From positions 128,001-192,000 of the IMG/VR virus record IMGVR_UViG_3300045988_176357: a DNA stretch of 64,000 nt; one strand, written 5' to 3'. Each line of letters begins with the position of its first letter. Within the stretch, counting starts at the first letter, position 1. The translations under genes were made by a program, and so were the position numbers. Source of the stretch: a virus. The notes under the pieces were generated by a model that had not been told where the DNA came from, did not search any database, and saw only the letters and a list, made by a program, of their open reading frames with translations. Shown here piece after piece: positions 2,169 to 53,661 of this stretch.

Positions 2169-2600
2169 TAACAACCTCCATTGAGGAGTGATCCTCATTG
2201 CAAAGAAAGTGAATTGCTAATAGATCCCAAGAGCCTCACGATGCCTGTAACAAGGATCGAAAGAGAAAACAAAGAAGTGAGGATACCGCAAGGCGACAGT
2301 AAGCCTAAACGGGAGTGACAACGGACGTTTAGCAGCCGAGCCTTGTATCGAGAGATACCCGGTACAAGGAAGGTTCATCGACTAGGACATCGTGTCCGTA
2401 CCCGAGCAGCCGTGTGCGTGATAACGCACGAAAGCAAGGGGAAGTACTCTGGCTCAGGAATGAGTCAATGAAATAGTCAGTGCTTCATGGAAACATGAAG
2501 AGTGGTCAGGAGTGACAACCTGAAACCTGCTACTGGGCGGCAACCGGTAGTGAACAGAACCATGGACTTCAATTGTATTGTTATTTCGTCAAGTTTTATT
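2169..2600 (+). ncRNA. Group I intron ribozyme core of IStron A
   Basis: Conserved with 9 other intron copies in the window. P7-like R/S motifs. Confidence 0.65.
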
Positions 2601-2657
2601 TACCGTTTTGATCTTTACAGAACGGAGTTATAATACTCTCAGTAACTGGAGAACACT

Positions 2658-3791
2658 TTGGAACCAAGAGCACACATAATCAGATTGTACCCGACAAGGG
2701 CACAGGAGAAGCAGCTGAAGAATACCATCGGCTGCGCTCGTTATGCGTACAATTGGGCTCTCGAGAAGTGGCGGGAGATGTATGCCGCACATGATAAGGA
2801 CAAGGCTTCTCCAAAGCCAAGTGCCTTGAAGCTGACCAAGTTATGGACTCAGGAGAAGCCTGACTGGGCACATGAGACAGCTTATTGCAGCCAGCAAAGA
2901 GCGATACATAACGTAGGCGTCGCTTATCAGCGCCTTTAGAGGGGCTTATCGGCGAAGCCGAAGTTCCATAAGAAGGGCGGCAAGGAGACGTTTTACGTTG
3001 ATAATGCGAAGGTCGCATGGTACGGCAATAGAATCCAGTTGCCCGACATCGGACGTGTCCGCGTAGCGGAGCAGATCCGTTTCGAGGGCAAGGTAATGGG
3101 CTACACAGTGTCCCATTATGCCGGACAGTGGCATCTCATAGCTCAGGTCAACGCCGAAGGCGACGTGAAACCTTACTGCGCCGATCCCGAGTCCGTCGTC
3201 GGTATCGACGTAGGACTTCTGAATCCGGCTGTAGCCTCCGATGGAACCGTCTTGCAGCTCCCCATAGAGAAGCTCCAAAAGCTTGACGCCAAGCTCAGGC
3301 GGCAGCAGAAGGCACTCTCCAGAAGTCAGCGCAACTCCAGAAACCACGCGAAGCTTCTCGTAAAGAAGCAGCGTACGCAGAATAAGATCAACAACATCCG
3401 AAAGGATGCAGTACATAAGTTCACGACCACCATTGCCAAGAGCCACGGCAAGGTAGTCATCGAAGATCTGGACATCCAAGGAATGAAGGATAAAGCTCCT
3501 TCAAGAGCCGTCAGAAGGGCGCATAACAGTTCCCTCATGGGCGCCATCCATCGGCAGCTCTCCTACAAAGTCCAGCACCTGATCAAGGTGAATCGCTTCT
3601 TCCCGTCTTCCAAGACCTGCAGCAACTGCGGGCACATAAGGAGCGCCCTTGATTTAAGTGAACGTACATATCATTGCGACCACTGCGGAGCGGTCATCGA
3701 CCGCGACCTCAATGCCGCAATCAACTTGATGAAATCAGGGCTGGTCAAGCCCGAAGCGTCTGTGGAGCAAGTCGGTACCGACTTGCGTTGA
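2658..3791 (+). pseudogene. tnpB: tnpB (IS200/IS605 OrfB) with in-frame TAG at 2938
   Basis: N-term MEPRAHIIRLYPTRAQE. C-term RuvC/zinc-finger YHCDHCGAVIDRDLNAAINL. The track splits it into 2658-2939 and 3039-3791. The same lesion is present in copy E. Confidence 0.75.
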
Positions 3792-3834
3792 AGCAGAAAG
3801 TACAAACGGACGCAACGTCCGTAAGTTCATGACA

Positions 3835-5514
3835 GAATACGTCCTGAAGAGGTTTGCAGGGACTGGTACGAAGCTGGTCGACACATTATGTAAAGACGAT
3901 GCAATAATTGTTAAGAATCGTCAAAAAATAAATGCATGGTTAGAGCAGTTCACAGGCATCTCTATGCCGGTAATGGCACAGTTGATGTGGTTGCGACAGG
4001 AAAACTCATCTTGGCTGCTGACGGCTACAGCTGCTCAGATCAACCAGTTCCTCGGTCTCATTTTCGACACCAAAAAGCTTGAGACCTACAGACAGCATCT
4101 GAAGAATGCCTGTGACAGCATACCGAAGCTGCGCGATGACTTTGACACAAGAAGGAAGCAAGCTGCAGAGACATTGCACCAGCAGTCCTCGCAGAAGGAG
4201 CTGCTGTCACAACAGCTGCAGGAACAGCAGGCACTTGTACAGGCTACACGGGAAACGCTGCAGGCATTTGGTAACAGCATGTCTGTAGCCGACCGTGACA
4301 AGATGCTGCGTCTGTGCGAACAGGAACTGGCAGTCTACAACAGAGACCTCGACAAGTATAGGGATCTGCAGGAAGCTCCTGTCGTGGATATTGAAACCGA
4401 GACAGCAGCTGAGACTGCATTGGTCTCCAAAATATCTGCACAGCGGCTTGAAAAGTCAACTTGTGAGCGGATGCTGAACAGTGCCCGTGCCGATAGAGAC
4501 AACAGCAAGTGGAGGCTTGATCAGCTGCGTCATATACATACGCCTGACACCTGTGAACTATGTGGTTGCAACCTCAGTACCAGTCCGGAAACGTACCGTA
4601 ACAACAAAGTAAAACTGTTACTGCAGCAGTCTTTAAGCTACGAAGAGGCCATCAGAACCTTTTCTGAGACCTACGAAACCAGTGCACATAAATGCATTGA
4701 ACTGGAAAAGCGTATGGCCCTGCTTGAACATGCTATTGCTTCAGATAATAAAGTGCTGGAATCAATCGGACAGAAACGTGCTGAAAGACTCCGGTACATG
4801 GAACAGCTGCAGCATAAAACAGAGCTTCAACACAAGATTGAACAGGTGACTGCTGAAATCGAAAAGCTCAAGGCAACACCTGTGTACGATGCGTCTATAT
4901 CGAAGCAGCAGATTGAAAGCATGCTTCGCAGTGCCGAAGCCAGAGAGACGGAACTGAAATCCGCATATGAGACCTGTATTGCTTCTATTGCGTCTGCACA
5001 ACAGATAATACATGATGCAGAAGAAGATGCTGTCAGGTATAAACGTAACGAACGTGTGCGCCAGGTTCTGTCGACTTTGCGTGATGTTTTGTCACAAAGC
5101 AGAGCACAGGCAAGATACCTTAACAGCAAGATATCTGCCTTGAATGGCAATATAGCTCACTATCTGCAACTGTCCGAGATGCCTTTCACAGTCTTCCTCG
5201 ACCCTGCAGAGCATGTTTTCAAGTACAGGATGGATGATTGTGATGTGCAGCATCAGGCAGGCATGCTGTCTGGTGCACAAAAGGCTGCCGCCGCAATTGC
5301 AATACAGATGTCGCTCGTTGTTACGGCAGTGCCGGATCTGACATTGCTTCTGCTGGATGAAGCGGATGCTTCGTTGTCACCGGAGAACAAAGTAATTGCT
5401 ACCAAGCTTTACAGGGTCCTTGCAGAGACGCTCAGTGGAAGCGATGGCAGCACATTCGTCATAAGTCAGTCAGACACTGTTGCTGCAGAATGTGACAGAG
5501 AAATAACACTATAA
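3835..5514 (+). CDS. sbcC: SbcC/Rad50-like ATPase, exon 2 (coiled coil, signature motif, Walker B)
   Basis: Long Q/E-rich coiled coil. LSGAQK signature and LLLLDEADASL Walker B/D-loop near the C-terminus. Joins exon 1 in frame. Confidence 0.8.
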   Translation, partial: EYVLKRFAGTGTKLVDTLCKDDAIIVKNRQKINAWLEQFTGISMPVMAQLMWLRQENSSWLLTATAAQINQFLGLIFDTKKLETYRQHLKNACDSIPKLRDDFDTRRKQAAETLHQQSSQKELLSQQLQEQQALVQATRETLQAFGNSMSVADRDKMLRLCEQELAVYNRDLDKYRDLQEAPVVDIETETAAETALVSKISAQRLEKSTCERMLNSARADRDNSKWRLDQLRHIHTPDTCELCGCNLSTSPETYRNNKVKLLLQQSLSYEEAIRTFSETYETSAHKCIELEKRMALLEHAIASDNKVLESIGQKRAERLRYMEQLQHKTELQHKIEQVTAEIEKLKATPVYDASISKQQIESMLRSAEARETELKSAYETCIASIASAQQIIHDAEEDAVRYKRNERVRQVLSTLRDVLSQSRAQARYLNSKISALNGNIAHYLQLSEMPFTVFLDPAEHVFKYRMDDCDVQHQAGMLSGAQKAAAAIAIQMSLVVTAVPDLTLLLLDEADASLSPENKVIATKLYRVLAETLSGSDGSTFVISQSDTVAAECDREITL

Positions 5515-5524
5515 GGAGAACAGG

Positions 5525-6565: not shown

Positions 6566-6673
6566 AAGCGATGAAAGAAGCTCTGGAAGGTGACCCTAAA
6601 GAACTGTTCAGTGCTCTGGCACACATTATGGTGCAATTCTTCAACAGAGAACTGGTAAACTAAGGAGAACGGA

Positions 6674-8139: not shown

Positions 8140-9649
8140 CAGCCTGACTATAAAGCTCAGCTATACTGTATGCTCGTGTACCCCGTGGCCTGTGAGCTTG
8201 CGGGATACAGCTCGTTTCACAATGCGTGAGCCAAAGACGCCGGAAGAACTTCGAGCAGAACGAGACGCCATTAAGCGTGCAGGCAGCACAGGCAAACCGA
8301 AGCCCTACAAGTTTACAAGTCACAGCTGCGTTGAAACAAGGAGTGGCTCAGGCTACTTCCTTATAGGCTTTTGGCCGCACCTCAAAGCAGAACTCGAAAA
8401 GCGCAATATACCTTACAGTGTAGACGACCAGCGAGATCGTTCACTCAGACCTGATCCTGATTATAGCTGCCTGTCGGGTATACAGTTCCGAGAAGGACAG
8501 GCAGAAGCATTGGCAAGTATCATATCAAGTGATGGCGGTCTGTTGTGCTCCAATGTTTCGTTCGGTAAAAGCTTCCTTATTAAGGTGCTCTGTCAATTAT
8601 ATCCTACATTGAACATACTTGTCGTATGCAATGCGGGCGAAGTCGTACGGGAGCTGTACAGAGCCATCTCTGAGGTGCTTCCCGGTCAGGTTGGCCTGCT
8701 GGATATGAAACACAGCGAGATCAATGGCAAACGCATCATCGTTACCACAACGAAGTCCATGACGAAAGTCAAACCGGAACAGGTACAGCTGATGCTCGTG
8801 GATGAATGTCATTGCGCTGGGTACAACGAGACAGGATTCCAAATCCAGCAGTTCTGCTTCTGCAGACGATTCGGATTCACAGCAACCCCGATCAGAAACC
8901 AAGGCGATCATCTGTACTTTGAATCGTTATTTGGGCCTGTGCTGCAGCAGCAGACATTTGAGCAGTCTGTAGCGGCAGGTTCGGTAACTCCGATTGAGTA
9001 CACTATGGTACCGATTGAGAAAAAGCTGACATATCTTGACGACATAAAGCAGCTGCCGAATGCAATTCAGTACCGACTGATGTATACCAACAACCCTGTA
9101 AGGAACAGACTTATTGCAGGTGTGTTCAACGATATCAGACAGGCGAATCCTGATGCACAGATACTTATCATGACTCAGACTATCGAGCACTTGATACGCC
9201 TATGTGAACTTATTCCGGGTTTGCATTTCGCACACGGTGAAAGAGGCGATCTCAGTTCATATAAGCGCAAGAAGGGGCTCGAGAATGTCGACATGTTCAA
9301 GTACAGACAGTCAGCTGAGCAACTGTCGTACGTGAAAAAACAGGCCGAGCTTGGTGAGTATAAGTCGCTTATAGCTACAGGCGTCTGGTCAAAGGGCATC
9401 AACCTGCACCACTTATCCGTACTTATAAGAGCGGATGGTGCTGTATCCGGGATACCGTCTGTGCAGATACCTGGACGACTTGCGCGGCTTGACGATGGAA
9501 AGGAAATTGCGTTTCTTGTGGACTTTTCGGACGAGTTCTGTGAGTCTGCAGGTAACAGAGCAGTAGCCAGAACCAGGCATTACAACAAGGAAGGATATGC
9601 GTGCGTATCTTATATAGATATGCTGCAGGAAATAAGAAGGACAAAATGA
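8132..9649 (+). CDS. SF2 DExH-box helicase
   Basis: GKS P-loop region, LMLVDECH (DExH box), GFTATPIR (motif III). True start may be Met at ~8222. Confidence 0.7.
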   Translation: MPDSLTIKLSYTVCSCTPWPVSLRDTARFTMREPKTPEELRAERDAIKRAGSTGKPKPYKFTSHSCVETRSGSGYFLIGFWPHLKAELEKRNIPYSVDDQRDRSLRPDPDYSCLSGIQFREGQAEALASIISSDGGLLCSNVSFGKSFLIKVLCQLYPTLNILVVCNAGEVVRELYRAISEVLPGQVGLLDMKHSEINGKRIIVTTTKSMTKVKPEQVQLMLVDECHCAGYNETGFQIQQFCFCRRFGFTATPIRNQGDHLYFESLFGPVLQQQTFEQSVAAGSVTPIEYTMVPIEKKLTYLDDIKQLPNAIQYRLMYTNNPVRNRLIAGVFNDIRQANPDAQILIMTQTIEHLIRLCELIPGLHFAHGERGDLSSYKRKKGLENVDMFKYRQSAEQLSYVKKQAELGEYKSLIATGVWSKGINLHHLSVLIRADGAVSGIPSVQIPGRLARLDDGKEIAFLVDFSDEFCESAGNRAVARTRHYNKEGYACVSYIDMLQEIRRTK

Positions 9650-10731
9650 AGTACAAGAAAGGTGAATTCGGTTACTGGTGGACCAGGAAAAATGAGGATA
9701 TTGAAGGCGGAGAGTATGAGGGCTCCATATGTTGTCCTGAAAATCTTACGTCTTTAAGAGGAGCACCACGAATAGTGACAGGTGAATTCTTTTGTCACCG
9801 TTGCCGTATCACAACACTGAGAGGAGCGCCTGAGAAAGTAGGCGGAAATTTTAGCTGTGTTGAAACGAAGCTGACAGATCTGAAAGGAGCTCCTAAAGAA
9901 GTCGGCGGTAACTTCTACTGTGACATGTGCGGGCTGATATCTCTGGAAGGAGGTCCTCGCAGGATAGGAGGAAGCTTTTACTGCGATAACAACAAGCTCA
10001 CTTCGTTAGAGGGCGGTCCCACTGAGATTTTCGGTGACTACAGATGCAGCTATAACGAGCTTAAAAATTTGTTAGGCGCACCAGAAGTTATTCCTGGCGA
10101 TTTCATCTGCAGTGAAACCACTCTTAATTCACTGGAGGGCTGTCCAAAAGTAGTGAAGGGCTCATTGATCCTGGACTATAATTCGCTCATATCCTTGGAG
10201 CATTGCGCTAAAAGTGTAGGAGGGGACTTCAATGTAAACTTCAATGGGCTTAAGTCGTTGTTAGGCGGGCCCGTATCTGTAGGAGGATCCTATAAGTGCG
10301 TGAACAATGATCTGCGTACTCTTTTTGGTTGTCCGTCAGTCATAAACGGAGACTTTGAGTGCGCAGGCAATGCACTGAATGATCTTGCCTCCTGTCCAAG
10401 TAAAGTAACAGGTAATTTTGATTGCTGTAGTAATCATCTGGTTACCTTGGAAGGAGGTCCCACAGAGGTAGGCGGCGACTATGACTGCTCCGTCAATAAT
10501 CTACAGACGCTTAAAGGAGCTCCATCGTGTGCTAACGGTGATTTTGATTGCAGCTTCAATGAATTGACAAGTCTTGAAGGCTCTCCTGATGTGGTGGCTG
10601 GAGAATTCGTCTGTCATAATAACAAATTGGAGTCTTTGGTCGGAGGACCTAGCGTAGTGTCCGCTCACTATTGCTGTTCGTACAATAACTTGAAGTCCCT
10701 GAGAGGGATTGCTCATAAAATCGGTGGAGCT
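9646..10731 (+). CDS. LRR-like 23-aa repeat protein, exon 1 (split by IStron B)
   Basis: MKYKKGEFGYWWT start, then about 14 repeats of LxSLxGxPxxVxGxFxC. Ends GGA then TAA, which is the first triplet of the IStron. Confidence 0.6.
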
Positions 10732-12404
10732 TAACAACTCCCTTTAACCAGTGATGGTTATTGAACAAGAAAGTGAATTGCTAATAGATCCCAAGAGCCT
10801 CACGACGCCAATAAAATGGATCGAAAGAGAAAACAAAGAAGTGAGGATACCGCAAGGCGACAATAAGCCTAAACGGGAGTGACAACGGACGTTTAGCAGC
10901 CGAGCCATGCGTTCGACAGAACGCCAGCGCATGGAAGGTTCATCGACTAGGACATTGTGTCCGTACCCGAGCAGCCATGTGCGTGATAACGCACGAAAGC
11001 AAGGGGAAGTACTCTTGGTTGGGAACAACCAAATGAAATAGTCAGTGCTTCATGGAAACATGAAGAGCGGTTAGGAGTGACAACCTGAAACCTGCTACTG
11101 GGTGGCAACCGGTAGTGAACAGAACCATGGACTTCAATTGTACTTTAATTTCATCAAGAACATTTAACGTTTTGATCTTTACAGATACGGTGTATAATAC
11201 ACCTAAACTGAAGGTGTAAATTTCATGATCAGAACAAACGTCATAAGATTGTACCCGACAAGGGCACAGGAAGCGCAGCTGAATAACACAGCTGGCGCTT
11301 GTCGTTTCGCATGGAATAAAGCCCTCAGTTACTGGGATGAGCAATATGAAGCTCATCTTAAGGATAAATCCATTCCGTTACCGATTTCTTCCAAAGTAGC
11401 AAGCTGGTATAAAGACAACCGCGAAGAATGGGCGTCCGAAACATCTTCTGTCTGTCAGCGCCAGGAAATACTTCACCTTGGCAAAGCCTTCCACAGCTAC
11501 TTTAGACGTCCGGACCATTTCGCACATTCGAAGTTCCACAAGAAGGGAATTAAGGACTCATTCGAGGTTCCGAATGACAAGGCGAAAATCAAAGACGGCA
11601 GACTTTCATTGCCGAAGATAGGCGAAGTCAAAATGGCTGAGCCGCTTCGCTACCAAGGCAAGATATGCAGCTACACAGTAAAGAAGTCAGGCGGCAACTG
11701 GTATGTTCACATACCTGTGGAAACAGGTAAGGACGAGAGAGTTCGTTGCATCAATCCAGAGTCCGTCGTCGGTATCGACGTAGGACTTCTGAATCCGGCT
11801 GTAGCCAGCGACGGCACCAAGCTGGAGCTCCCAAAGGAAACCTTGGACAAGCTCGACGCCAAACTCAGGCGACAGCAAAAGGCACTCTCCCGTTCACAAA
11901 GGAACTCCAGAAACCATGCCAAGCTTCTTCTCAAGAAGCAGCGTACTCAAAATAAGATCAACAACATCCGAAAGGATGCAGTACACAAGTTCACGACCGC
12001 CATTGCCAAGAGCCACGGCAAGGTAGTCATTGAGGATCTGGATATAAAAGAGATGAAGGCCAAGGCCCCCGCACGTTCAGTGCGTCGCGCCTACAACAGC
12101 TCCCTCATGGGCGCCATTCGCTGGCAGCTCTCTTACAAAGTCCAGCACCTGATCAAGGTGAATCGTTTCTTCCCGTCTTCCAAGACCTGCAGCAACTGCG
12201 GGCACATAAAGGGCGACCTCACCGTAGGTGAACGTACATATCATTGCGACCACTGCGGAGCGGTCATCGACCGCGACCTCAACGCCGCAATCAACTTGAT
12301 GAAAGCAGGGCTGGTCAAGCCCGAAGTGTCTGTGGAGTAAGCTGGTACCAGCTTACGTTGAATCAGAAAGTACAGACGGACGCAATGTCCGTAAGTTCAT
12401 GACA
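10732..12404 (+). mobile_element. IStron B: group I intron + intact tnpB + 3' tail
   Basis: Same 5' ribozyme module (10732-~11160) and same 3' tail ...gtccgtaagttcatgaca as copies A and E. Confidence 0.8.
11225..12340 (+). CDS. tnpB: TnpB (IS605 OrfB family), intact 371 aa
   Basis: MIRTNVIRLYPTRAQEAQL...; central D-containing RuvC-I; C-term CSNCGH...YHCDHCGAVIDRDLNAAINL. Confidence 0.85.
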   Translation: MIRTNVIRLYPTRAQEAQLNNTAGACRFAWNKALSYWDEQYEAHLKDKSIPLPISSKVASWYKDNREEWASETSSVCQRQEILHLGKAFHSYFRRPDHFAHSKFHKKGIKDSFEVPNDKAKIKDGRLSLPKIGEVKMAEPLRYQGKICSYTVKKSGGNWYVHIPVETGKDERVRCINPESVVGIDVGLLNPAVASDGTKLELPKETLDKLDAKLRRQQKALSRSQRNSRNHAKLLLKKQRTQNKINNIRKDAVHKFTTAIAKSHGKVVIEDLDIKEMKAKAPARSVRRAYNSSLMGAIRWQLSYKVQHLIKVNRFFPSSKTCSNCGHIKGDLTVGERTYHCDHCGAVIDRDLNAAINLMKAGLVKPEVSVE

Positions 12405-12509
12405 GACATATATTGCGCCGATAATGAGCTGCCTGTTGCTGACAGCAAAAGAGCAAGATACGCTTTCGAAGCCAAGGATAATCTGCTGGAGGTATGTGGT
12501 GGCTTATAA
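12405..12509 (+). CDS. Putative 3' exon (34 codons) of the split LRR-like gene
   Basis: Reads in frame from the exon-1 GCT using the same junction rule that restores sbcC and the 50574 gene. Confidence 0.35.
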   Translation, partial: DIYCADNELPVADSKRARYAFEAKDNLLEVCGGL

Positions 12510-12616
12510 CAAGAACGTCGAGTATTTGTACTCCGTCGTATTTCCTTCGTTTAGTTCCAGCAAGGCGGTGCATGATGAGCTGGTGCACAGACACAGGAAA
12601 GAGACGGAAAAGGTGG

Positions 12617-13066
12617 GATATGTCCGAAGCAAGTTTGACTGAGTTCACGATGTTCGGCAATGAATACGAGGCTGTCGACAGCAACATATGCGATGGCTGC
12701 GTCTTTTTCAGTAAAGAGGGGCGTAGGTGTCACAGATACGAGATTGTACGGTCAGCTTCCGTTCACGGCGATCTTTCTTGTAGCAGCGTCGAAAGGACTG
12801 ACGGCAGGGATGTTATTTTCGTAAAGAAGAGCAGCAAACCCTATAAGACTGACTGCGGTTCAGTTACCAATGGCGACCTGCTCAGGCGTATGAACAACAG
12901 GGAGCTGGCAGATGTCATAGGGTTCTTTGCCCGCTGGATGCAGAGGGCCGACATAGGCGAGGACAACTACAGTGAATATATGCTGCGCTGGCTGAGCTCG
13001 TTGGGAACACCTGGAGATGCTGACGCAAAATCAAGGGGTTTTTATGAGAATCAAAAAGGTAACTGA
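12617..13066 (+). CDS. Hypothetical protein (Cys-rich)
   Basis: ORF only. Confidence 0.3.
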   Translation, partial: DMSEASLTEFTMFGNEYEAVDSNICDGCVFFSKEGRRCHRYEIVRSASVHGDLSCSSVERTDGRDVIFVKKSSKPYKTDCGSVTNGDLLRRMNNRELADVIGFFARWMQRADIGEDNYSEYMLRWLSSLGTPGDADAKSRGFYENQKGN

Positions 13067-13352: not shown

Positions 13353-13467
13353 TGTCAGATGTGAAACATGTAAAAGTAAACAAGGACAGAAAGAGGGGAC
13401 TTAAGATGCCTAAGAAAGCGGCAGGCTTACATAGTCAACAATAAGGAGCACAAGAAAGGAGAACAAA

Positions 13468-40867: not shown

Positions 40868-41483
40868 GATGTTGTTGCAGAAACTGAAGATCGCGCGCGA
40901 AAGCAGTTCGCGTGTTGTCTTCTGCTATAAGTATGTCTGGTCCCGAATCGACGACTATGTGTCACTGACCAATCTGAGACTGGAAGCAATACAGGTCCGC
41001 GACGGCAAGGTCTTCCATACACAGGCCGCTCCAGTGCTTGATGTGAACCATGGTAAGCCCAGAGTCGCATTCGCAGATTCCGGTATCGTGCAGGTCACCT
41101 CAGGACCCCGATCGAACATTGTCTTGAGAGAACGTCTGCTGCACGCCAACGAGACAGCAGCTCCGGTTCCCTTTTGTGGAACCAGGGAAATTACAGAAAG
41201 CAGCGATGAGAAGGATCTTCAGGTAGTCTATGACTTCCTGACATCCGCAGCCTTTCCTGGCGTGGATATGCGCATGCCGCAGTTGTTCCGGATCACGAAG
41301 AACCCTGAAAGGCTGCGCCTGAACATCACACCTGACTTGCTGCAGGCTCTTGATCTGGATCCCGGAACACCCAGTAAGGAGATACAGGATGCGTTCCTGA
41401 ACAAACTGCCTTCCATTTCAGCGCAGACATCCGAAGGATACGTGTTGCCGTTCAACGTGTGCCGCATGTGTTTCACATGCTGA
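40860..41483 (+). CDS. Hypothetical protein
   Basis: ATGcTTGA overlap with upstream stop. Confidence 0.4.
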   Translation: MLEMLLQKLKIARESSSRVVFCYKYVWSRIDDYVSLTNLRLEAIQVRDGKVFHTQAAPVLDVNHGKPRVAFADSGIVQVTSGPRSNIVLRERLLHANETAAPVPFCGTREITESSDEKDLQVVYDFLTSAAFPGVDMRMPQLFRITKNPERLRLNITPDLLQALDLDPGTPSKEIQDAFLNKLPSISAQTSEGYVLPFNVCRMCFTC

Positions 41484-41494
41484 CCAGCACACAA

Positions 41495-43065: not shown

Positions 43066-43198
43066 GTGACTGGGTATATGCAGGCGGCATGATCGCTGCA
43101 AGTATAACAGGCATCGGCAAGCATAAGCCTAAGGTACTGTACACCAGAGGTATGGACTTCTTCCGTAACTGGTGCGCCGCAAAACAGTGGAGTATCCA

Positions 43199-43813: not shown

Positions 43814-44412
43814 AGCTGGGAGTGACGAATCCTGTACCCAAAGCAGTCATCTATATCTGCACCTGGGTACAGGGCTTAATGACAGGTGTGCAGGTCTAAT
43901 CGATTTGCAGCATGCTGTCCTGTTTGTCAAAATTAACCCACAGGAATGTCTATCCCACCGGACAATACAGAAGTACGAATCCCTAGCAGGCATCAAGCAA
44001 CAGTGATTTGTCCGTGGCCTGATCAGCCGGTTTGACAAATTTGGTTTGAACCTACACGATGCAGCCGGACTTGGAAACTGTGCAGTTAGTCTGTGGTGCA
44101 GGTGTCACATAGTTGACCGATAACTGTACCATAGTCTAAGAGACAGAGGATACCTGCTATTCGGGATACAGAGGGTATGAAGCTATCATCCCTTTAGTCG
44201 TTACTTCCTGCTTCTGTACGTGCGCAGCCTTATACTTGCTCAAGTCTATGCCGGATGAGACTGCGCCATCTTTAATTGAATACAATTTATGATACTACAT
44301 AGGAGCTCCTATTGTGTTGGATACATCTATCAGACCTCCGGATAAATGGAGGGCAGCAGCAATACCAAAGAAAGACGGATCGTTCAAAATATACTACATA
44401 TTAGGTATACGT
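43814..44412 (+). ncRNA. Candidate structured non-coding RNA region (~600 nt, no ORF) upstream of the IStron D / reverse transcriptase locus
   Basis: Perfect 10-bp inverted repeat cctgtaccca...tgggtacagg at 43829-43871. gcatgc and caaatttg palindromes. No ORF longer than 60 codons on either strand. Confidence 0.35.
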
Positions 44413-45983
44413 AAAGGACGCCTTGGCGCGTGAGCGCCATTGAACAAGAAAGTGAATTGCTGGGACACCTTAACGGGTAATGCCGAAGGCAATCAGCAGC
44501 CGAGCTTATGGATGCCCAGACCGGGCGCCATGAGAAGGTTCATCGACTATCCCATATGGGAGTACCCGAGCAGCCTGGCTGCGACAGCAGCGAAAGCAAG
44601 GGGAAGCACTCTGGCTCAGGAATGAGTCAATGATATAGTCAGTGCGCTTATGGAAACATAAGGAGTGGTCAGGAGTGACAACCTGAAACCTGCTACTGGG
44701 CGGCAACCGGTAGTGAACAGAACCATGGTCTCAAAATAGCAACATTATTTTGACGTTTTGATTTTCATAAAGGTGATGTATATTATCTGTATACAATAAG
44801 GAGCGCCATGTACAGAGCCCATAAGATACGCATAGATTGCACAAAAGAGCAGCACAGTCTGTTAATGCAGACTGCAGGCTGCGCTCGTTATGCGTACAAT
44901 TGGGGTCTCGAGAGGTGGGGCAAGATGTACGAAGCCTGGAAGGCTGACAACAGCTTGGAGAAACCCAACTGGAAAAACATATCCAGACAGTGGACACAAG
45001 AGAAACCTGAATGGGCGAACAAGACGACACGCAGTGCTGTCACTTGCTCACTAAGCAATCTCGGTACTGCCTTCAAGAACTTCATAAGGCGCAAAGCAAA
45101 GTACCCGAAGAAGCACAAGAGGTCCCAAGGAATCTCATTCCAGCTTGGAAACGATACCTGCAGTATCGAAGGCAACCGCATCAGGCTGCCTATCATAGAC
45201 TACGTAAAGCTCAGAGAGCTTCCGCGCTTCCAAGGCAAAATCACAGGCTACACAGTTCAGTACATAGCTTCCCACTGGTACGTGATAGTCGCCTTCGACT
45301 GTCCAGACGTCCCCAAAGAAGCGCCAGAGTCCGTCGTCGGTATCGACGTAGGACTCCAGCAACCAGCTGTAGCCTCAGATGGAACCAAGCTAGAGCTACC
45401 CATAGAGAAGCTCCAGAAGCTCGAAGCCAAACGACGCAGAGCTCAGCGAGCCCTTAGCAGGAGCAAGAGGAATTCCAATGCGCGAGAGCGCAAACGGGCC
45501 AAGCTTCAACGTATACAACAGAAGATCATCAACATCCGTCAGGATGCAGTTCACAAGTTTACGACTGCAGTGTGCAAAAACCACGCAACTGTAGTCACCG
45601 AAGATCTGAACATAAACGAGCTCAAAGACAAGGCCCCCGCACGTTCAGTGCGCAGAGCCTACAACAGCTCCCTTATGGGACTCATTTTGTTCCAGATCTC
45701 GTACAAGGCGGTGCACCACGTAAAGGCACCCAAGTTCTTCCCGAGCACCAAGAGATGCTCAACTTGTGGACACATTAAGGAGGCCATGCCTCCGCAAATC
45801 AGAACATACCATTGCGACCACTGCGGAGCCCATCTCGACAGAGATGAGAACGCAGCTCGCAACTTAATGTTGCAACCGTGGGTCACACGGTAAGATGCGC
45901 GGTGATGGTGCTTGTGACATTCGTCACGAGCTCCAGACGATCCGCGAAGACAATCCGGTGCAACGCCGGATGAGATCATGACA
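44413..45983 (+). mobile_element. IStron D: group I intron + tnpB family 2 + 3' tail
   Basis: ~95% identical to IStron C throughout. Inserted between the non-coding region and the reverse-transcriptase gene. Confidence 0.7.
44808..45893 (+). CDS. tnpB: TnpB family 2 (361 aa), intact
   Basis: Near-identical to 41890-42975. Confidence 0.8.
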   Translation: MYRAHKIRIDCTKEQHSLLMQTAGCARYAYNWGLERWGKMYEAWKADNSLEKPNWKNISRQWTQEKPEWANKTTRSAVTCSLSNLGTAFKNFIRRKAKYPKKHKRSQGISFQLGNDTCSIEGNRIRLPIIDYVKLRELPRFQGKITGYTVQYIASHWYVIVAFDCPDVPKEAPESVVGIDVGLQQPAVASDGTKLELPIEKLQKLEAKRRRAQRALSRSKRNSNARERKRAKLQRIQQKIINIRQDAVHKFTTAVCKNHATVVTEDLNINELKDKAPARSVRRAYNSSLMGLILFQISYKAVHHVKAPKFFPSTKRCSTCGHIKEAMPPQIRTYHCDHCGAHLDRDENAARNLMLQPWVTR

Positions 45984-45994
45984 GAAGGTACCTG

Positions 45995-50200: not shown

Positions 50201-50214
50201 GAAAGGAAACACAA

Positions 50215-50535
50215 ATGCACAAACTCACAATCAACGGATCCACCTCCACCCAGATCAAACTCGGACGTTACACCACAGTGCTCAATCTCAGGAAGGCCCT
50301 GCAGGAAGTAGGGTACAACGTTAAAGGCAAGGCGTGCCTTATCAAGCAGACGCACAGCAGCATGCCCGCCAGAGCCAGAGACAATTACGTCATCCAGTAC
50401 GGAGACGAGATCGAGTTTACCAACGTGCCGCCCAAGATCGGAGCCAGAAAAGAGCGTGGTTCAGGAACCACTGTCACTGTAGGACGCAACACATTCACGT
50501 TCAATGACGGCGTTCTCATCATCTGCAGCCTGTGA
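50215..50535 (+). CDS. Small beta-grasp (ThiS/MoaD/ubiquitin-like) protein with C-terminal extension
   Basis: MHKLTINGSTSTQIKLG...YVIQYGDEIEF resembles the ThiS ...DGDEIEI pattern. Extension PPKIGARKERGSG... follows. Confidence 0.4.
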   Translation: MHKLTINGSTSTQIKLGRYTTVLNLRKALQEVGYNVKGKACLIKQTHSSMPARARDNYVIQYGDEIEFTNVPPKIGARKERGSGTTVTVGRNTFTFNDGVLIICSL

Positions 50536-50573
50536 TTACAACTAACAAACTATAATACGAAAGGAAAACACAT

Positions 50574-51995
50574 ATGATCATCATTGCAACTGCTAACAAC
50601 AACGAAAACCTCAACAACATCAGGATCAACCTTGACAACAGCATCTCTCTCGGTCAGCTTCTCGACAGAGATGATGTTCGTGCATTCTTCCACAATGCCA
50701 GCAAAGAGAGCATTCTGGCAAGCCTCGTTACCATTGACGGACTCGATGCCTATGCCATTACGAATGCGAGCTCTCTGACTGTTGACAATACTATGGAATT
50801 GCAGTTCGACATCTACGGCAGAGCACCGGAGACCGCACATACAGCTGCTGCTTCCGCCGGGTTCGTCACAATTACTCAGGGCGGAGGTTTCAACAGCAAG
50901 CGTGTGCCTATTGTGTCAGATACGACAAGAGCAGGGGATGTGCTTACACAGGATGTGGCCAATTTCTTCGCCACAACTGTGGATACTCTGCACAATATGC
51001 GTATTCTTATCAATGATGTCGAGGCGGAAACAACAGCTGTACTGCACGACGGCGACGCGATTACTCTCATGTCCAGAAAGTGCGGCGACAAGGGGGCATG
51101 TGTACCCATTCTTGCAATTACGCATACTGACGGATCTGTGACGAGACATGCAGTCCTTGCAGGTTCCAGGCTCAAGGAATGTCTCTCCAGGATTGTTCCC
51201 GGTGCGGTAGTGCTGTCTATCGACGGTACAGCGGTACCCATGAACTTCTATGATGCTATTGTAGAAGGCAAGCTGGTTGACAAGGACATGCAAGTGACTG
51301 TCAACGATAACAAGAAGTGCACGGTGCATTGCTGCGCCAATGACGGCAGTGATCCGGTCGACATGATCCTGGATGATGGCAGTTCTGTGATGGACCTGCT
51401 TACCAAAGTACAGGACAAGTTTGAAAACGCTGAGATCTATGTCTTTGACGTGGACGGCGATCTGGTACCGGAAGCTTTCGCCGATACCATCCTGACTAAT
51501 ACACTTGTCGTTGATGGTATGTATGTAACTTTCAGTTCGCTGCGTGAGATGCCTGTTGTACATGGCTATATGAACATGGAAGACGACAGCGAAGAAGATG
51601 AAGAAGATGAAGAAGATGGTGCTGAGTATGCAGATGACGAGCAGGTACTTGAAGGTCCTGCAGAAGATGCTGTAGGCGCCGTAACAGTCGTTCTTCCCGG
51701 GGGCTTCAGCACCTCTCAGGTCGCAATCAGGAACAATGTGACGAAGCTTCGTGATGTTGTTCTCAGCGCACGTATTCTGAATATGTCTGCGATGAACGAA
51801 AGCCAGGCGCAGACTCTCGTATACACAGTGAACGATGTCGAGAGCAATCTCGATGATACTCTGAGCATCGGTGATGTGATCCGGATGTCTGCACGTAAAG
51901 CAGGCGACAAAGGAAGTGCATTGAAAGTTACTGTCAAGCTGATGGATGCCACCGAATTCCGGTATGACGTGGAGCCGGGGACAAGGCTCGAGGCT
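50574..51995 (+). CDS. Multi-domain protein with repeated beta-grasp-like units, exon 1
   Basis: Repeated blocks ...VNDVE..T..LHDGDAITLMSRKCGDKGA / ...VNDVESNLDDTLSIGDVIRMSARKAGDKGSA and ~70-aa ...DLLTKVQDKFENAEIYVFDVDGDLVPE...VVDGMYVTF units. Acidic EDEEDEED linker. Confidence 0.5.
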
Positions 51996-53661
51996 TAACA
52001 ACCTCCATTGAGGAGTGATCCTCAATGCAAAGAAAGTGAATTGCTAATAGATCCCAAGAGTCTCACGACGCCTTTAACAAGGATCGAAAGAGAAAACAAA
52101 GAAGTGAGGATACCGCAAGGCGACAGTAAGCCTAAACGGGAGTGACAACGGACGTTTAGCAGCCGAGCCTTGTATCGAGAGATACCCGGTACAAGGAAGG
52201 TTCATCGACTAGGACATCGTGTCCGTACCCGAGCAGCCGTGTGCGTGATAACGCACGAAAGCAAGGGGAAGTACTCTGGCTCAGGAATGAGTCAATGAAA
52301 TAGTCAGTGCTTCATGGAAACATGAAGAGTGGTCAGGAGTGACAACCTGAAACCTGCTACTGGGCGGCAACCGGTAGTGAACAGAACCATGGACTTCAAT
52401 TGTATTGTTATTTCGTCAAGTTTTATTTACCGTTTTGATCTTTACAGAACGGAGTTATAATACTCTCAGTAACTGGAGAACACTTTGGAACCAAGAGCAC
52501 ACATAATCAGATTGTACCCGACAAGGGCACAGGAGAAGCAGCTGAAGAATACCATCGGCTGCGCTCGTTATGCGTACAATTGGGCTCTCGAGAAGTGGCG
52601 GGAGATGTATGCCGCACATGATAAGGACAAGGCTTCTCCAAAGCCAAGTGCCTTGAAGCTGACCAAGTTATGGACTCAGGAGAAGCCTGACTGGGCACAT
52701 GAGACAGCTTATTGCAGCCAGCAAAGAGCGATACATAACGTAGGCGTCGCTTATCAGCGCCTTTAGAGGGGCTTATCGGCGAAGCCGAAGTTCCATAAGA
52801 AGGGCGGCAAGGAGACGTTTTACGTTGATAATGCGAAGGTCGCATGGTACGGCAATAGAATCCAGTTGCCCGACATCGGACGTGTCCGCGTAGCGGAGCA
52901 GATCCGTTTCGAGGGCAAGGTAATGGGCTACACAGTGTCCCATTATGCCGGACAGTGGCATCTCATAGCTCAGGTCAACGCCGAAGGTGATGTGAAACCT
53001 TATTGTGCCAATCCAGAGTCCGTCGTCGGTATCGACGTAGGACTTCTGAATCCTGCTGTAGCCTCCGATGGAACCGTCTTGGAGCTCCCTATTGAGAAGC
53101 TTCAGAAGCTCGACGCCAAACTCAGGCGACAGCAGAAGGCACTCTCCCGTTCACAAAGAAACTCCAGAAACCACGCGAAGCTTCTCATAAAGAAGCAGCG
53201 TACACAGAATAAGATCAACAACATCCGTAAGGATGCAGTACATAAGTTCACGACCACCATTGCCAAGAGCCACGGCAAGGTAGTCATCGAAGATCTGGAC
53301 ATCCAAGGAATGAAGGATAAAGCTCCTTCAAGAGCCGTCAGAAGGGCGCATAACAGTTCCCTCATGGGCGCCATCCATCGGCAGCTCTCCTACAAAGTCC
53401 AGCACCTGATCAAGGTGAATCGCTTCTTCCCGTCTTCCAAGACCTGCAGCAACTGCGGGCACATAAGGAGCGCCCTTGATTTAAGTGAACGTACATATCA
53501 TTGCGACCACTGCGGAGCGGTCATCGACCGCGACCTCAATGCCGCAATCAACTTGATGAAATCAGGGCTGGTCGAGCCCGAAGCGTCTGTGGAGCAAGTC
53601 GGTACCGACTTGCGTCGAAGCAGAAAGTACAAACGGATGCAATGTCCGTAAGTTCATGACA
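51996..53661 (+). mobile_element. IStron E (copy of IStron A, ~97% identical) splitting the multi-beta-grasp gene
   Basis: Same 5' flank gaggct|taacaacctcc and same 3' end catgaca|g. Confidence 0.8.
52485..53651 (+). pseudogene. tnpB: tnpB with the same in-frame TAG (52765) as copy A
   Basis: N-terminal 93 aa identical to 2658-2939. Downstream part ~98% identical. Stop replaced by CGA, so a 15-aa longer tail. Confidence 0.75.

What the first reader, a model, noticed from the sequence alone, without database searches (positions are those of the whole stretch)
2169..53661. Five IStrons (group I intron + TnpB), two families, with three in-frame gene disruptions sharing one target motif
Each element has a ~400-nt 5' segment with group I core motifs, a tnpB ORF, and a conserved ~45-nt 3' tail ending catgaca(g). 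Copies A (2169-3834), B (10732-12404) and E (51996-53661) all sit after the host sequence G(A/G)GCT and carry TAA as their own first triplet. Removing each element gives in-frame continuation using the same junction rule:
- sbcC: VDGEA|EYVLK
- LRR gene: IGGA|DIYCA
- beta-grasp gene: RLEA|DFLMS

Three independent frame agreements argue that these are real spliced genes and that the element has a GAGGCT/GGAGCT target or TAM preference.
Basis: partly seen in the sequence, partly recalled or inferred. Interest (0 to 1): 0.6.

Follow-up and report, generated by a model that had tools for sequence, protein, structure and literature searches.

The report
TnpB-carrying self-splicing introns in gut phage

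Summary

**Boundaries.** Natural empty sites in close relatives fix them:
- A 2167-3835
- B 10730-12405
- C 41453-43066
- D 44385-45984
- E 51994-53662

**Host genes.** All five (not three) interrupt ORFs in frame: SbcC-like, LRR protein, unknown, reverse transcriptase, unknown. The true junctions are VDGE|EYVLK, IGG|DIYCA and RLE|DFLMS.

**Target.** The family-1 target is GAGG, GGAG or GAAG, not G(A/G)GCT. It pairs with a 4-nt guide sequence at element nt 9-12 at 21 of 21 distinct sites. Family 2 inserts after CGTT or AGTT, with a canonical U·G pair.

**Components.**
- The ribozyme core, the RNA scaffold at the tnpB 3' end and a stem closing the tnpB module all show compensatory covariation.
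- TnpB aligns along its full length with ISDra2 TnpB.
- No TnpA was found.

**Unexpected context.**
- TAG is never a stop in the 53 long ORFs of the window.
- TAG occurs in frame in tnpB of A and E under purifying selection, and 35 times in two intron-borne endonuclease ORFs.
- The window holds at least nine group I introns.

**Verdict.** A new variant of a known kind. Splicing and TnpB-guided homing are inferred, not shown.

The parts
2167..3835 (+). IStron A (family 1, 1669 bp), inside an SbcC-like gene
   Evidence: Empty site in L001: GACGGCGAGG|AATAC. RF00028 26.9 bits, E=2.4e-4. A 1-nt G at both ends leaves a 1-nt ambiguity in the DNA boundary.
2175..2178 (+). Internal guide sequence CCTC of A. 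It pairs with the last four exon bases GAGG (2163-2166) to form P1.
   Evidence: Flank and guide sequence are complementary at 21 of 21 distinct family-1 sites.
2658..3791 (+). tnpB of A (377 codons from TTG), with one in-frame TAG at 2937-2939
   Evidence: The TAG allele is kept in A, E, L010b and L094. dN/dS is 0.07 before and 0.17 after the TAG.
3696..3835 (+). Conserved structured RNA overlapping the tnpB 3' end and running to the right end (omega-RNA-like scaffold). It ends in the 3' splice-site G.
   Evidence: RNAalifold on 17 sequences: 12 pairs, 11 with compensatory double changes.
3836..3855 (+). First ~20 nt of the 3' exon, the predicted guide and target segment of the TnpB RNA of A. 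This is assigned by position only.
   Evidence: Position relative to the right end, by analogy with characterised TnpB systems. Not tested.
10730..12405 (+). IStron B (family 1, 1676 bp), inside an LRR-repeat gene. Guide sequence CTCC at 10738-10741, flank GGAG.
   Evidence: Empty site in L081, identical over 40 nt on each side. The spliced repeat GIAHKIGGDIYC (12 residues) restores the period of the preceding repeats (sequence).
11225..12340 (+). tnpB of B (371 aa, no internal stop)
   Evidence: Pfam. NCBIfam NF040570, 260 bits. Full-length match to ISDra2 TnpB 8bf8, E=4e-39, with GIDVG / IEDL / DRD aligned to that protein's GVDVG / TEHL / DRD.
41453..43066 (+). IStron C (family 2, 1614 bp), inside the gene starting at 40743. 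Guide sequence GACT at 41497-41500, flank CGTT (3 of 4 pairs).
   Evidence: Empty site in L085: GTGTTGCCATT|TGACTGGG. The spliced protein matches L085 over 291 aa at 95.5%. RF00028 46.5 bits, E=9e-11.
41890..42975 (+). tnpB of C (361 aa)
44385..45984 (+). IStron D (family 2, 1600 bp), inside a reverse-transcriptase gene. Guide sequence GACG at 44417-44420, flank CGTT, with a U·G pair at the 5' splice site.
   Evidence: Empty sites in L085 and L086: GACGGATCGTT|AAGGTA, reading IPKKDGSL|RYLLIP. RF00028 43.2 bits, E=3e-9.
44808..45893 (+). tnpB of D (361 aa)
   Evidence: dN/dS against C is 0.18.
51994..53662 (+). IStron E (family 1, 1669 bp), inside a 608-aa gene of unknown function. Guide sequence CCTC at 52002-52005.
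   Evidence: Empty site in L079: GGCTCGAGG|ATTTCC.
52485..53651 (+). tnpB of E, with an in-frame TAG at 52764-52766
1920..2166 (+). Exon 1 of the SbcC-like gene (exon 2 is 3836-5514)
9601..10729 (+). Exon 1 of the LRR-repeat gene (exon 2 is 12406-12509)
40743..41452 (+). Exon 1 of an unknown gene (exon 2 is 43067-43208)
44314..44384 (+). Exon 1 of the reverse-transcriptase gene (exon 2 is 45985-46843, Pfam RVT_1)
50574..51993 (+). Exon 1 of the 608-aa unknown gene (exon 2 is 53663-54069)
   Evidence: No Pfam family matches it.
31773..32119 (+). ORF-less group I intron F in the PolA-like gene. It has the same core as family 2, with canonical U...G splice sites.
   Evidence: RF00028 40.9 bits, E=8e-9, with a U·G pair in P1. 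Splicing gives ESG|RTSASKPNLQQYP. 95% identical to C over 164 nt.
55126..55140 (+). Unoccupied target in the window (GACAGGAG|AATACAC) that carries a family-1 IStron in the relative L010. Further unoccupied targets are at about 59164 and about 14136.

Best explanation
Each element is a TnpB-only IStron. A subgroup-IA-type group I ribozyme forms the left ~400 nt. A tnpB gene with its guide-RNA scaffold forms the right ~1.2 kb. A short stem between the segment just after the ribozyme core and the last ~10-20 nt before the 3' end closes the tnpB module into a loop.

**RNA level (inferred).** The ribozyme finds the 5' splice site through a 4-bp P1 helix between the last four exon bases and an internal guide sequence. 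In family 1 these are GAGG, GGAG or GAAG against CCUC, CUCC or CUUC, with a G-C pair at the junction. In family 2 they are CGUU or AGUU against GACG or GACU, with a U·G pair at the junction. The ribozyme splices after the terminal G of ...CAUGACAG and restores the host reading frame without a scar.

**DNA level (inferred).** TnpB, loaded with the scaffold plus the adjacent 3'-exon sequence as guide, cuts intron-less copies of the same gene in co-infecting related phages. Recombinational repair copies the element in. The window itself encodes a UvsX-like recombinase and SbcCD-like proteins. In effect this is RNA-guided intron homing.

**Shown here:**
- exact boundaries and presence/absence polymorphism;
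- in-frame restoration of all five host genes;
- target and guide-sequence complementarity at many sites;
- covariation in three RNA modules;
- full-length TnpB proteins that align with ISDra2 TnpB and are under purifying selection.

**Not shown:** splicing, TnpB cleavage and its TAM, and the route by which new sites are colonised.
For: **Boundaries and mobility**
- All five elements have precise empty sites in natural relatives.
- The window has empty sites for three IStrons carried by relatives.
- A and E have no difference in the first 279 nt of tnpB, 99-100% identity across the ribozyme segments compared, and 27 differences in 1131 nt of tnpB overall. They lie in different genes, so at least one is a recent copy.

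**Ribozyme**
- RF00028 covers the full model with E from 2.4e-4 to 9e-11.
- In an alignment of 16 sequences, 34 of 52 predicted pairs show double compensatory changes. Both strands of P7 covary: GACUA/UAGUC, GAUCA/UGAUC, GGUCA/UGACC.

**P1 helix**
- 21 distinct family-1 sites all pair with the guide sequence. CCTC meets GAGG at 12 of 12 sites and CTCC meets GGAG at 6 of 6. CTTC meets GAAG twice and GGAG once, through a G·U pair.
- In family 2, GACG meets CGTT and GACT meets AGTT.

**TnpB**
- All three Pfam domains are present.
- NF040570 scores 260 and 217 bits.
- B matches ISDra2 TnpB at E=4e-39 over its full length, with GIDVG, IEDL and DRD aligned to the corresponding motifs.
- dN/dS is 0.12-0.19 in four pairwise comparisons.

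**Scaffold RNA**
- Two helices have 11 of 12 pairs compensated across 17 copies.
- The C and D hairpins are fully compensated.

**Closing stem**
- Cognate duplexes score -11 to -22 kcal/mol.
- In 10 of 13 elements, at most 2 of 300 shuffles reach the observed energy.
- Pairing is lineage-specific.

**Precedent**
- IStron splicing at a G-ending 5' exon, and TnpB cleavage of vacant sites, were shown experimentally for other IStrons (PMC4227781; 10.1101/2023.11.20.567912).
Against: - No transcript or biochemical data exist for these elements.
- Every RF00028 hit is below Rfam's gathering score.
- Family 1 lacks the U·G pair that marks nearly all group I 5' splice sites.
- A 4-nt P1 helix is short.
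- Homing explains spread only to the same site. It does not explain the more than 25 different sites seen, and no transposase was found.
- The two N-terminal TnpB types (42% identical) are not tied to the target type. L095 and L099 combine CCTC with the B-type, and L108 combines CTCC with the A-type. The protein's TAM may therefore not be the 4-mer that P1 reads.
- tnpB of A and E is intact only if TAG is read as sense, and no suppressor tRNA was found in the sequence held.
- C's guide sequence pairs with only 3 of 4 exon bases.
- L062 has a non-matching closing stem.
Confidence: 0.75

Rival explanations
1. The elements move as ordinary IS200/IS605-type transposons. A Y1 TnpA supplied in trans, by the host or by another part of the phage genome, cuts after the target tetranucleotide. 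TnpB only prevents loss. The agreement between target and guide sequence reflects TnpA's own base-pairing rule for its cleavage site, plus selection for elements that can splice.
For: - There are many different insertion sites, at least 25.
- Targets are 4 nt long and lie only on the 5' side, with no target duplication.
- The guide sequence sits 4 nt 5' of a hairpin (P2), which is where IS608-type elements carry their left-end guide tetranucleotide (established knowledge of IS608).
- The TnpB profile score is higher for the IS200/IS605 type than for the IS607 type, 240 against 193 bits.
- The ACAG end resembles the TCAG end of group A IStrons (PMC4227781).
Against: - tblastn with IS608 TnpA finds no TnpA in the window or in about 110 fetched loci.
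- No element has room for a tnpA gene or a remnant of one. Only about 100 nt separate the core from tnpB.
- No Watson-Crick match was seen between the bases 5' of the right-end hairpin and the ACAG end (read from the sequence).
Confidence: 0.3
2. New sites are colonised by reverse splicing of the excised intron RNA into transcripts or single-stranded DNA that carry the 4-nt complement of the guide sequence. Reverse transcription and recombination follow. The phage's own reverse transcriptase could take part.
For: - Every insertion site is complementary to the guide sequence, which is exactly what reverse splicing requires.
- An RVT_1 reverse transcriptase is encoded in the window.
- No transposase was found.
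Against: - The same complementarity is needed for forward splicing, so it would be selected whatever the insertion route.
- The reverse-transcriptase gene is itself interrupted by element D.
- Reverse splicing of a 1.6-kb RNA followed by full-length cDNA synthesis has no precedent known to me for bacterial group I introns (own knowledge).
- It gives tnpB no role, yet tnpB is under purifying selection.
Confidence: 0.12
3. TnpB in these elements no longer acts as a nuclease for mobility. It serves as an RNA-binding regulator or chaperone of splicing, or A and E are simply dead copies with a nonsense mutation.
For: - TnpB binding to its RNA is known to block the second step of splicing in another IStron (10.1101/2023.11.20.567912).
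- A and E carry an in-frame TAG under the standard code.
Against: - The motifs aligned with the ISDra2 TnpB catalytic region, and the zinc-finger cysteines, are kept in all five copies.
- The TAG allele persists in four copies from three genomes, with dN/dS of 0.17 downstream of it.
- TAG is never used as a stop in the 53 long ORFs.
Confidence: 0.08
4. The first reader's junction rule is correct at the RNA level. Splicing would occur after ...GCU and before the final G, or after GCU and after CAUG. It would leave one or two extra codons relative to the intron-less allele.
For: - A U at the 5' splice site would fit the group I rule.
- Both alternatives stay in frame (sequence).
Against:
- The uninterrupted homologues lack the extra residue.
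- GCU lies in the P1 loop and is not paired with a G.
- Group B IStrons are shown experimentally to splice after a G that is paired with C (PMC4227781; PMC13565253).
Confidence: 0.03

Closest known systems
Group A IStrons (CdISt1 of Clostridioides difficile; IS200/IS605-type), Tourasse et al. 2014 PMC4227781; Zedaveinyte et al. 10.1101/2023.11.20.567912
   Same: - The order of parts is the same: ribozyme, then tnpB, then guide-RNA scaffold at the right end.
- The intron is subgroup IA-type, with P7.1 and P7.2.
- A short, compositionally balanced stem closes the IS module.
- The 3' end ...ACAG resembles TCAG.
- Family 2 has a U-ending 5' exon with a U·G pair.
- TnpB scores best against the IS200/IS605-type profile.
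- Copies often lack TnpA.
   Different: - Targets are 4-mers (CGTT/AGTT, and GAGG/GGAG/GAAG), not the T-rich pentanucleotides TTGAT, ATTAT or TTTAT.
- Family 1 has a G-ending 5' exon.
- No tnpA fragment is present at all.
- The host is a large gut phage, not a Firmicutes chromosome.
Group B IStrons (BcISt1, CboIStron; IS607-type), including CbISt3/CbISt4 in C. botulinum phages c-st and D-1873
   Same: - Family 1 inserts after a G-ending site. GAGG is one of the listed group B targets.
- The last exon G pairs with a C in the element instead of forming a U·G pair.
- IStrons carried by phages have a precedent.
   Different: - The right end is ACAG, not CGG.
- The target's last two bases (GG) differ from the element's last two (AG) at the commonest site type. 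This does not fit a serine-recombinase crossover dinucleotide.
- No serine TnpA is present.
- The closing stem is not long and AT-rich.
- TnpB scores lower against the IS607-type profile.
Homing-endonuclease group I introns of T4-like phages (td, nrdD, nrdB introns; I-TevI etc.)
   Same: - They are group I introns in phage replication and nucleotide-metabolism genes. This window has introns in PolA-like and NrdD genes.
- Related phages differ by presence or absence of the intron.
- Spread during co-infection by double-strand-break repair is the expected route.
- One intron here carries GIY-YIG and HNH ORFs.
   Different: - The nuclease in the five elements is RNA-guided TnpB. It takes its specificity from the adjacent exon, so one element family can occupy many unrelated genes.
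ISDra2 TnpB with its omega RNA (PDB 8bf8, 8ex9, 8h1j)
   Same: - The alignment is full-length (E=4e-39).
- GIDVG, IEDL and DRD align with GVDVG, TEHL and DRD of ISDra2 TnpB. By my own knowledge these hold the RuvC Asp-Glu-Asp triad.
- A structured RNA overlaps the 3' end of the ORF and ends at the element boundary.
   Different: - There is no TnpA partner.
- The TAM is unknown, and the target 4-mers differ from TTGAT.
- The element is embedded in a ribozyme.

Membership tests
IStron (any group) | Group I ribozyme forms the 5' part of the element | tested here: met
   RF00028 covers the full model with E from 2.4e-4 to 9e-11, though below the gathering score. 34 of 52 pairs are compensated across 16 copies.
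IStron (any group) | IS200/IS605/IS607-type ORF B (tnpB) lies 3' of the ribozyme, inside the intron | tested here: met
   Pfam and NCBIfam. PDB alignment.
IStron (any group) | Inserted in genes, and precise removal restores the coding sequence | tested here: met
   Met at the DNA level: empty sites exist for all five elements. RNA splicing itself cannot be tested with these tools.
IStron (any group) | Stem formed by the sequences flanking the IS module (the 'IR stem') | tested here: met
   Cognate duplexes score -11 to -22 kcal/mol. The stems are lineage-specific and compensated between families 1 and 2.
IStron (any group) | Transposase ORF A (TnpA) or a remnant of it | tested here: not met
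   tblastn with IS608 TnpA gives no hit in the window or the loci. Only about 100 nt separate the core from tnpB. A serine-type TnpA was not searched for with a profile.
Group A IStron (IS200/IS605-type) | [quoted passage not shown] | tested here: not met
   Family 2 inserts after CGTT or AGTT. Family 1 inserts after GAGG, GGAG or GAAG.
Group A IStron (IS200/IS605-type) | 3' terminus TCAG, and a 5' exon ending in U paired with G | tested here: inconclusive
   The terminus is ACAG in all copies. The U·G pair is present in family 2 only.
Group B IStron (IS607-type) | GG-ending target and CGG 3' terminus (shared crossover dinucleotide) | tested here: not met
   The GAGG sites end in GG, but the element ends in AG. 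The GGAG and GAAG sites end in AG. Family 2 sites end in TT.
Group B IStron (IS607-type) | Last exon base is G, paired with C in the element | tested here: met
   Met by family 1 at 21 of 21 sites. Not met by family 2.
TnpB / omega-RNA (OMEGA) system | RuvC Asp-Glu-Asp triad and a zinc-finger domain | tested here: met
   GIDVG, IEDL and DRD align to the corresponding motifs of ISDra2 TnpB. The assignment of these motifs to the catalytic residues rests on my own knowledge. They are present in all five copies.
TnpB / omega-RNA (OMEGA) system | Conserved structured RNA overlapping the ORF 3' end and ending at the right boundary | tested here: met
   11 of 12 pairs are compensated across 17 copies. 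No Rfam family matches this stretch.
TnpB / omega-RNA (OMEGA) system | TAM-dependent, guide-dependent DNA cleavage of the vacant site | not testable with these tools
   The target 4-mer and the 3' exon are in the right positions. The empty sites for B and E in L081 and L079 match the would-be guide for at least 16 nt.
Group I intron (Rfam RF00028) | Score at or above Rfam's gathering threshold (50 bits) | tested here: not met
   Scores are 26.3-46.5 bits. The E-values are nevertheless significant.
Group I intron (Rfam RF00028) | Terminal G at the 3' splice site, and a U·G pair at the 5' splice site | tested here: inconclusive
   The terminal G is present in all copies. The U·G pair is present in D and F, and in C-type elements at AGTT sites. 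Family 1 has G-C instead.

The most novel reading that the evidence does not exclude
In a lineage of large human-gut phages that read TAG as a sense codon, TnpB has replaced protein-only homing endonucleases as the mobility engine of group I introns. No transposase is involved.

- The element would spread between co-infecting genomes by RNA-guided cleavage of intron-less alleles.
- It would reach new genes because only a 4-nt exon/guide-sequence match is required.
- The nucleases of the selfish elements would be made only when the phage switches on TAG decoding. These are tnpB of A and E, plus the GIY-YIG and HNH ORFs with 35 in-frame TAGs. Homing would then be timed to a particular phase of infection.
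Probability: 0.3. Interest if true: 0.75.

Novelty: new variant of a known kind. Interest (0 to 1): 0.55.

Why it matters
IStrons and the role of TnpB in keeping transposons in place are known from a few Firmicutes and from work in E. coli. What this locus adds is a natural population picture.

- Dozens of insertion sites differ between near-identical phage genomes.
- Both splice-site types, G-ended and U-ended, occur on one TnpB and right-end lineage.
- No transposase is in sight.
- A clean rule (four exon bases complementary to element nt 9-12) predicts where the element can live.

This makes two open questions directly testable in a phage system. Does TnpB drive true homing between co-infecting genomes? 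How do TnpB-only elements reach new sites?

The in-frame TAG codons in the nuclease genes also link mobile-element expression to stop-codon recoding in gut phages.

On the practical side, automated annotation will miscall all five host genes as truncated and two tnpB genes as pseudogenes.

Tried and rejected
- **GenBank phage collection.** A search with 8 kb of the window and with element B gave no match.
- **Exact look-up of a window protein.** Gene 12494..13066 is not on record.
- **L080 as an empty site for E.** Uninformative, because the gene's 3' part is missing there.
- **Locating C and D from the start of their shared sequence (AAAGGAC).** I first read both as intergenic. That was rejected when L085 and L086 showed empty sites 28-45 nt further upstream and in-frame exons.
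- **Rfam's P1 for D** (5' splice site after UAUACU). Rejected, because it creates a stop and disagrees with the empty site.
- **Co-evolution of TnpB's N-terminal half with the target 4-mer.** Tested and not supported. The modules are shuffled.
- **A diversity-generating retroelement around the reverse transcriptase.** No repeat pair with adenine-biased mismatches was found.
- **A sigma-70 promoter for tnpB.** No plus-strand match above chance.
- **A suppressor tRNA.** None in the window or in 37 loci.
- **TnpA.** None found by tblastn.
- **The amino acid encoded by TAG.** The only homologue found (P0029) is a public gene call that already assumes TAG=Gln, so it is not independent evidence. The alleles CGG and TAG at the same tnpB codon would fit a route through CAG.
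- **A second viral scan for family-2 left ends.** It returned only the two loci already held.

Full report
**1. What is there**

The window is a one-strand block of phage replication and recombination genes.
- PHROG and Pfam matches include an SbcD-like phosphoesterase, helicases, a primase/helicase-like protein, a UvsX-like recombinase, an NrdD N-terminus and a reverse transcriptase.
- Close relatives are IMG/VR viral contigs and human-gut metagenome contigs of up to 191 kb.
- Nothing similar is in the GenBank phage collection.
- No tRNA gene lies in the window.

The 16-nt P3/P4 motif AAGAAAGTGAATTGCT occurs nine times.

Five copies are followed by tnpB (elements A to E). The others are:
- F, an ORF-less intron at 31773-32119 in a PolA-like gene;
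- G, from 32239, in the same gene, carrying GIY-YIG and HNH ORFs;
- I, at 34936-35264;
- H, from about 63750, which cuts NrdD and runs off the window.

**2. Group I identity**

Rfam's gathering scan finds nothing. With E-value thresholds on short stretches, RF00028 matches every copy tested over the whole model.

| Copy | Bits | E-value |
|---|---|---|
| C | 46.5 | 9e-11 |
| D | 43.2 | 3e-9 |
| F | 40.9 | 8e-9 |
| G | 37.0 | 1e-7 |
| A | 26.9 | 2.4e-4 |
| I | 26.3 | 1.3e-4 |

Family 1 scores lower because it carries an extra insertion of about 100 nt in the P5 region.

I aligned 16 divergent copies, three from the window and 13 from other viral contigs. RNAalifold predicts 52 pairs, and 34 of them have compensatory double changes.
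- P2, P6, P8 and the P9 helices vary freely but stay paired.
- The two strands of P7 covary: GACUA/UAGUC, GAUCA/UGAUC, GGUCA/UGACC.
- The order P7, two hairpins, P3', P8, P7' is that of subgroup IA. This is my reading of the alignment and was not formally classified.

**3. Exact boundaries**

The spliced SbcC-like protein has a 96%-identical uninterrupted homologue (P0001, 641 aa). All eight homologues aligned lack that position.

Its DNA (L001) reads GACGGCGAGG|AATAC. The related contig IMGVR_UViG_3300045988_177579 has uninterrupted copies of four more host genes:

| Element | Empty site in relative |
|---|---|
| B | ATCGGTGGAG\|ACATAT |
| E | GGCTCGAGG\|ATTTCC |
| C | GTGTTGCCATT\|TGACTGGG |
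| D | GACGGATCGTT\|AAGGTA |

For C, my predicted spliced protein matches that contig continuously over 291 aa at 95.5%. For D, a second contig (L086) shows the same empty site, and the join gives the reverse-transcriptase motif IPKKDGSL|RYLLIP.

The elements are therefore:

| Element | Coordinates | Length |
|---|---|---|
| A | 2167-3835 | 1669 bp |
| B | 10730-12405 | 1676 bp |
| C | 41453-43066 | 1614 bp |
| D | 44385-45984 | 1600 bp |
| E | 51994-53662 | 1669 bp |

All five split ORFs in frame.

This adds exactly three bases, so it also stays in frame, and frame agreement could not reveal the error. With the corrected boundaries every element ends in G, as group I introns must.

**4. Target rule**

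In family 1 the four exon bases before the element are complementary to element nt 9-12, across an 8-nt loop CUUAACAA. A metagenome scan with the left-end motif raised the number of distinct family-1 sites to 21.

| Guide sequence | Flank | Sites |
|---|---|---|
| CCTC | GAGG | 12 of 12 |
| CTCC | GGAG | 6 of 6 |
| CTTC | GAAG | 2 |
| CTTC | GGAG (still pairs, via G·U) | 1 |

The base at -5 is not conserved. The last exon base is G paired with C. This is the unusual junction described and verified experimentally for group B IStrons (PMC4227781; PMC13565253).

In family 2 the guide sequence occupies the same place relative to P2.
- D has GACG against exon CGUU, with a terminal U·G pair.
- C-type copies have GACU against AGUU at two other sites (L032, L056).
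- The window's C sits at CGTT, which gives 3 of 4 pairs.

The left ends of C and D differ in the first 28-45 nt. These form different hairpins inside the P1 loop.

**5. TnpB and its RNA**

The tnpB ORFs of B and C, and of A when TAG is read as sense, have all three TnpB Pfam domains. B, C and D pass NCBIfam's TnpB model. B aligns end to end with ISDra2 TnpB at E=4e-39. Its GIDVG, IEDL and DRD motifs align with the corresponding ISDra2 motifs, which by my own knowledge carry the catalytic residues.

Pairwise dN/dS values:

| Comparison | dN/dS |
|---|---|
| A vs E | 0.12 |
| A vs L010b | 0.14 |
| C vs D | 0.18 |
| B vs L010a | 0.19 |

The last ~140 nt of 17 copies, including relatives whose TnpB is only 40-45% identical, share two helices in which 11 of 12 pairs are compensated. 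A third, terminal hairpin is compensated between families: ACGGACG..CGUCCGU against UCCGGUG..CGCCGGA (read from the sequence). This is the expected position and behaviour of a TnpB guide-RNA scaffold. No Rfam family matches it.

The segment just after the ribozyme core is complementary to the last 10-20 nt before the terminal (G)ACAG.
- Family 1 pairs CAUGGACUU with AAGUUCAUG.
- Family 2 pairs CAUGGUCUCA with UGAGAUCAUG.
- Distant lineages have longer duplexes that match only their own right end.
- In 10 of 13 elements, at most 2 of 300 shuffles reach the observed energy.

This corresponds to the 'IR stem' drawn for IStrons by Tourasse et al. (PMC4227781). It would bring the 3' splice site to the core. 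In the distant lineages it overlaps the terminal hairpin of the scaffold. The two folds would then exclude each other, in line with the intron/guide-RNA conflict described for CboIStron (10.1101/2023.11.20.567912).

**6. Mobility**

- The window and its closest relative share none of their IStron sites.
- The window has intact, unoccupied targets at about 55133, 59164 and 14136 where relatives carry family-1 elements.
- Other gut contigs carry copies at window-equivalent 1029, 10285 and 60549.
- A and E lie in unrelated genes. They have no difference in the first 279 nt of tnpB and 99-100% identity across the ribozyme segments compared, with 27 differences in 1131 nt of tnpB overall.
- No IS608-type TnpA is detectable anywhere in the sequence held, and the elements have no room for one.
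- The same TnpB-only architecture recurs in many large viral contigs and in five of seven MAG contigs found with a core pattern.

Spread to the cognate site in an intron-less genome by TnpB cleavage and recombinational repair is the best-supported route. It is inferred from precedent (PMC10055086; 10.1101/2023.11.20.567912). How new sites are reached remains open.

Two observations limit the simple model.
- The two N-terminal TnpB types (42% identical, against 87-90% in the C-terminal part) are not tied to the target 4-mer.
- One relative carries a family-2 tnpB and right end without any ribozyme, after the flank GAGTT.

**7. Genetic code**

- None of the 53 plus-strand ORFs of 150 aa or more ends in TAG (27 end in TGA, 26 in TAA).
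- Reading TAG as sense opens two ORFs in intron G: a GIY-YIG ORF with 15 TAGs and an HNH ORF with 20.
- tnpB of A and E has one TAG each. The same allele is in L010b and in a copy on the 191-kb contig, while other copies have CGG there.
- A B-type copy (L099) has two in-frame TAGs.
- A public gene call translated the GIY-YIG ORF with TAG=Gln. That is an assumption of the caller, not evidence.

I conclude that this phage probably decodes TAG, and that the tnpB genes of A and E are probably not pseudogenes. Which amino acid TAG encodes, and which tRNA reads it, are not established.

**8. Comparison and verdict**

These are IStrons in architecture and probably in mechanism. They fit neither published group cleanly.
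- They share the xCAG end, the short closing stem and an IS200/IS605-like TnpB with group A.
- Family 1 shares the G-ended target and the G-C junction with group B.
- The targets are new 4-mers.
- No transposase accompanies them.
- They are spread through a gut phage lineage that also holds ORF-less and endonuclease-bearing introns with the same core.

I rate this a new variant of a known kind and of moderate interest. Splicing and nuclease activity remain to be shown.

Noticed in passing
whole window; 32585-33271, 33541-34527, 2937-2939, 52764-52766: TAG is never a stop in the 53 long ORFs. It occurs in frame 15 and 20 times in a GIY-YIG ORF and an HNH ORF inside a PolA intron, and once in tnpB of A and of E. 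All in-frame TAGs seen in credible genes of this window are in mobile-element nuclease genes. This suggests stop-codon recoding (code-15-like), possibly gating their expression.
   Followed up: partly
30318-35300: A PolA-like gene is split by at least three group I introns: F at 31773-32119, G from 32239 (about 2.3 kb, with two endonuclease ORFs), and I at 34936-35264. I could not fully reconstruct the exon structure after motif A (DYS|).
   Followed up: partly
62684-64000: An anaerobic ribonucleotide reductase gene (ATP-cone plus the NrdD N-terminus) is cut at about 63750 by another intron of the same core family. The intron runs off the window end.
   Followed up: partly
44314-44384 + 45985-46843: The phage encodes a reverse transcriptase (RVT_1), and element D interrupts it. 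No diversity-generating template/variable repeat pair was found nearby.
   Followed up: partly
L081:4029-5270 (relative contig), equivalent to window 13083-13422: A family-2 tnpB and right end without any ribozyme sits after the flank GAGTT and replaces about 340 bp of the window's sequence. The nuclease/RNA module and the ribozyme are therefore separable.
   Followed up: partly
tnpB of A (2658-3791) vs B (11225-12340), and metagenome copies L095, L099, L108: TnpB is mosaic. The N-terminal ~175 aa of the A and B types are only 42% identical, while the C-terminal halves are 87-90% identical. The two N-terminal types are found with either guide-sequence/target type.
   Followed up: partly
2557-2564, 41793-41800 etc., compared with the right ends of distant relatives (L011, L012, ...): The ribozyme core ends with ..GUGAACAG in all five elements. 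This is the same octamer that forms the 3' end (GUGAACAG|) of distantly related IStrons. It may be a relic or alternative 3' splice site, and a hint of how the tnpB module was acquired.
   Followed up: no
L001 vs window 3841-3843; L085 vs window 41450: Some empty alleles differ from the occupied ones right at the predicted recognition site. There are three changes at 3'-exon positions 6-8 for A, and CATT instead of CGTT for C. These could be escape from cleavage or co-conversion tracts.
   Followed up: no
60-176 and 756-838: An ~85-nt sequence (GAAGCCCGTAGAGGGC...GGGGTYACCCCCTCTCGTT.TGTAGGGTTACCCTCTAACAGAAGCCAGAGAGG) is repeated directly upstream of two ATG codons (175 and 838). It may be a shared leader or regulatory RNA.
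   Followed up: no
6731-6826, 7507-7602, 13534-13629, 25753-25848, 37868-37963, 39850-39945 and others; 20957-21556, 36041-36460: A multi-copy gene family shares a 96-nt block (..CPDWAQYAAVD.DG..). Paralogous genes carry long runs of 15-nt tandem repeats.
   Followed up: no
L062 (IMGVR_UViG_3300045988_177661): One distant IStron has a post-core segment of one lineage type and a right end of another. Its closing stem does not form (-6.4 kcal/mol, no better than shuffles). It is probably a recombinant.
   Followed up: no
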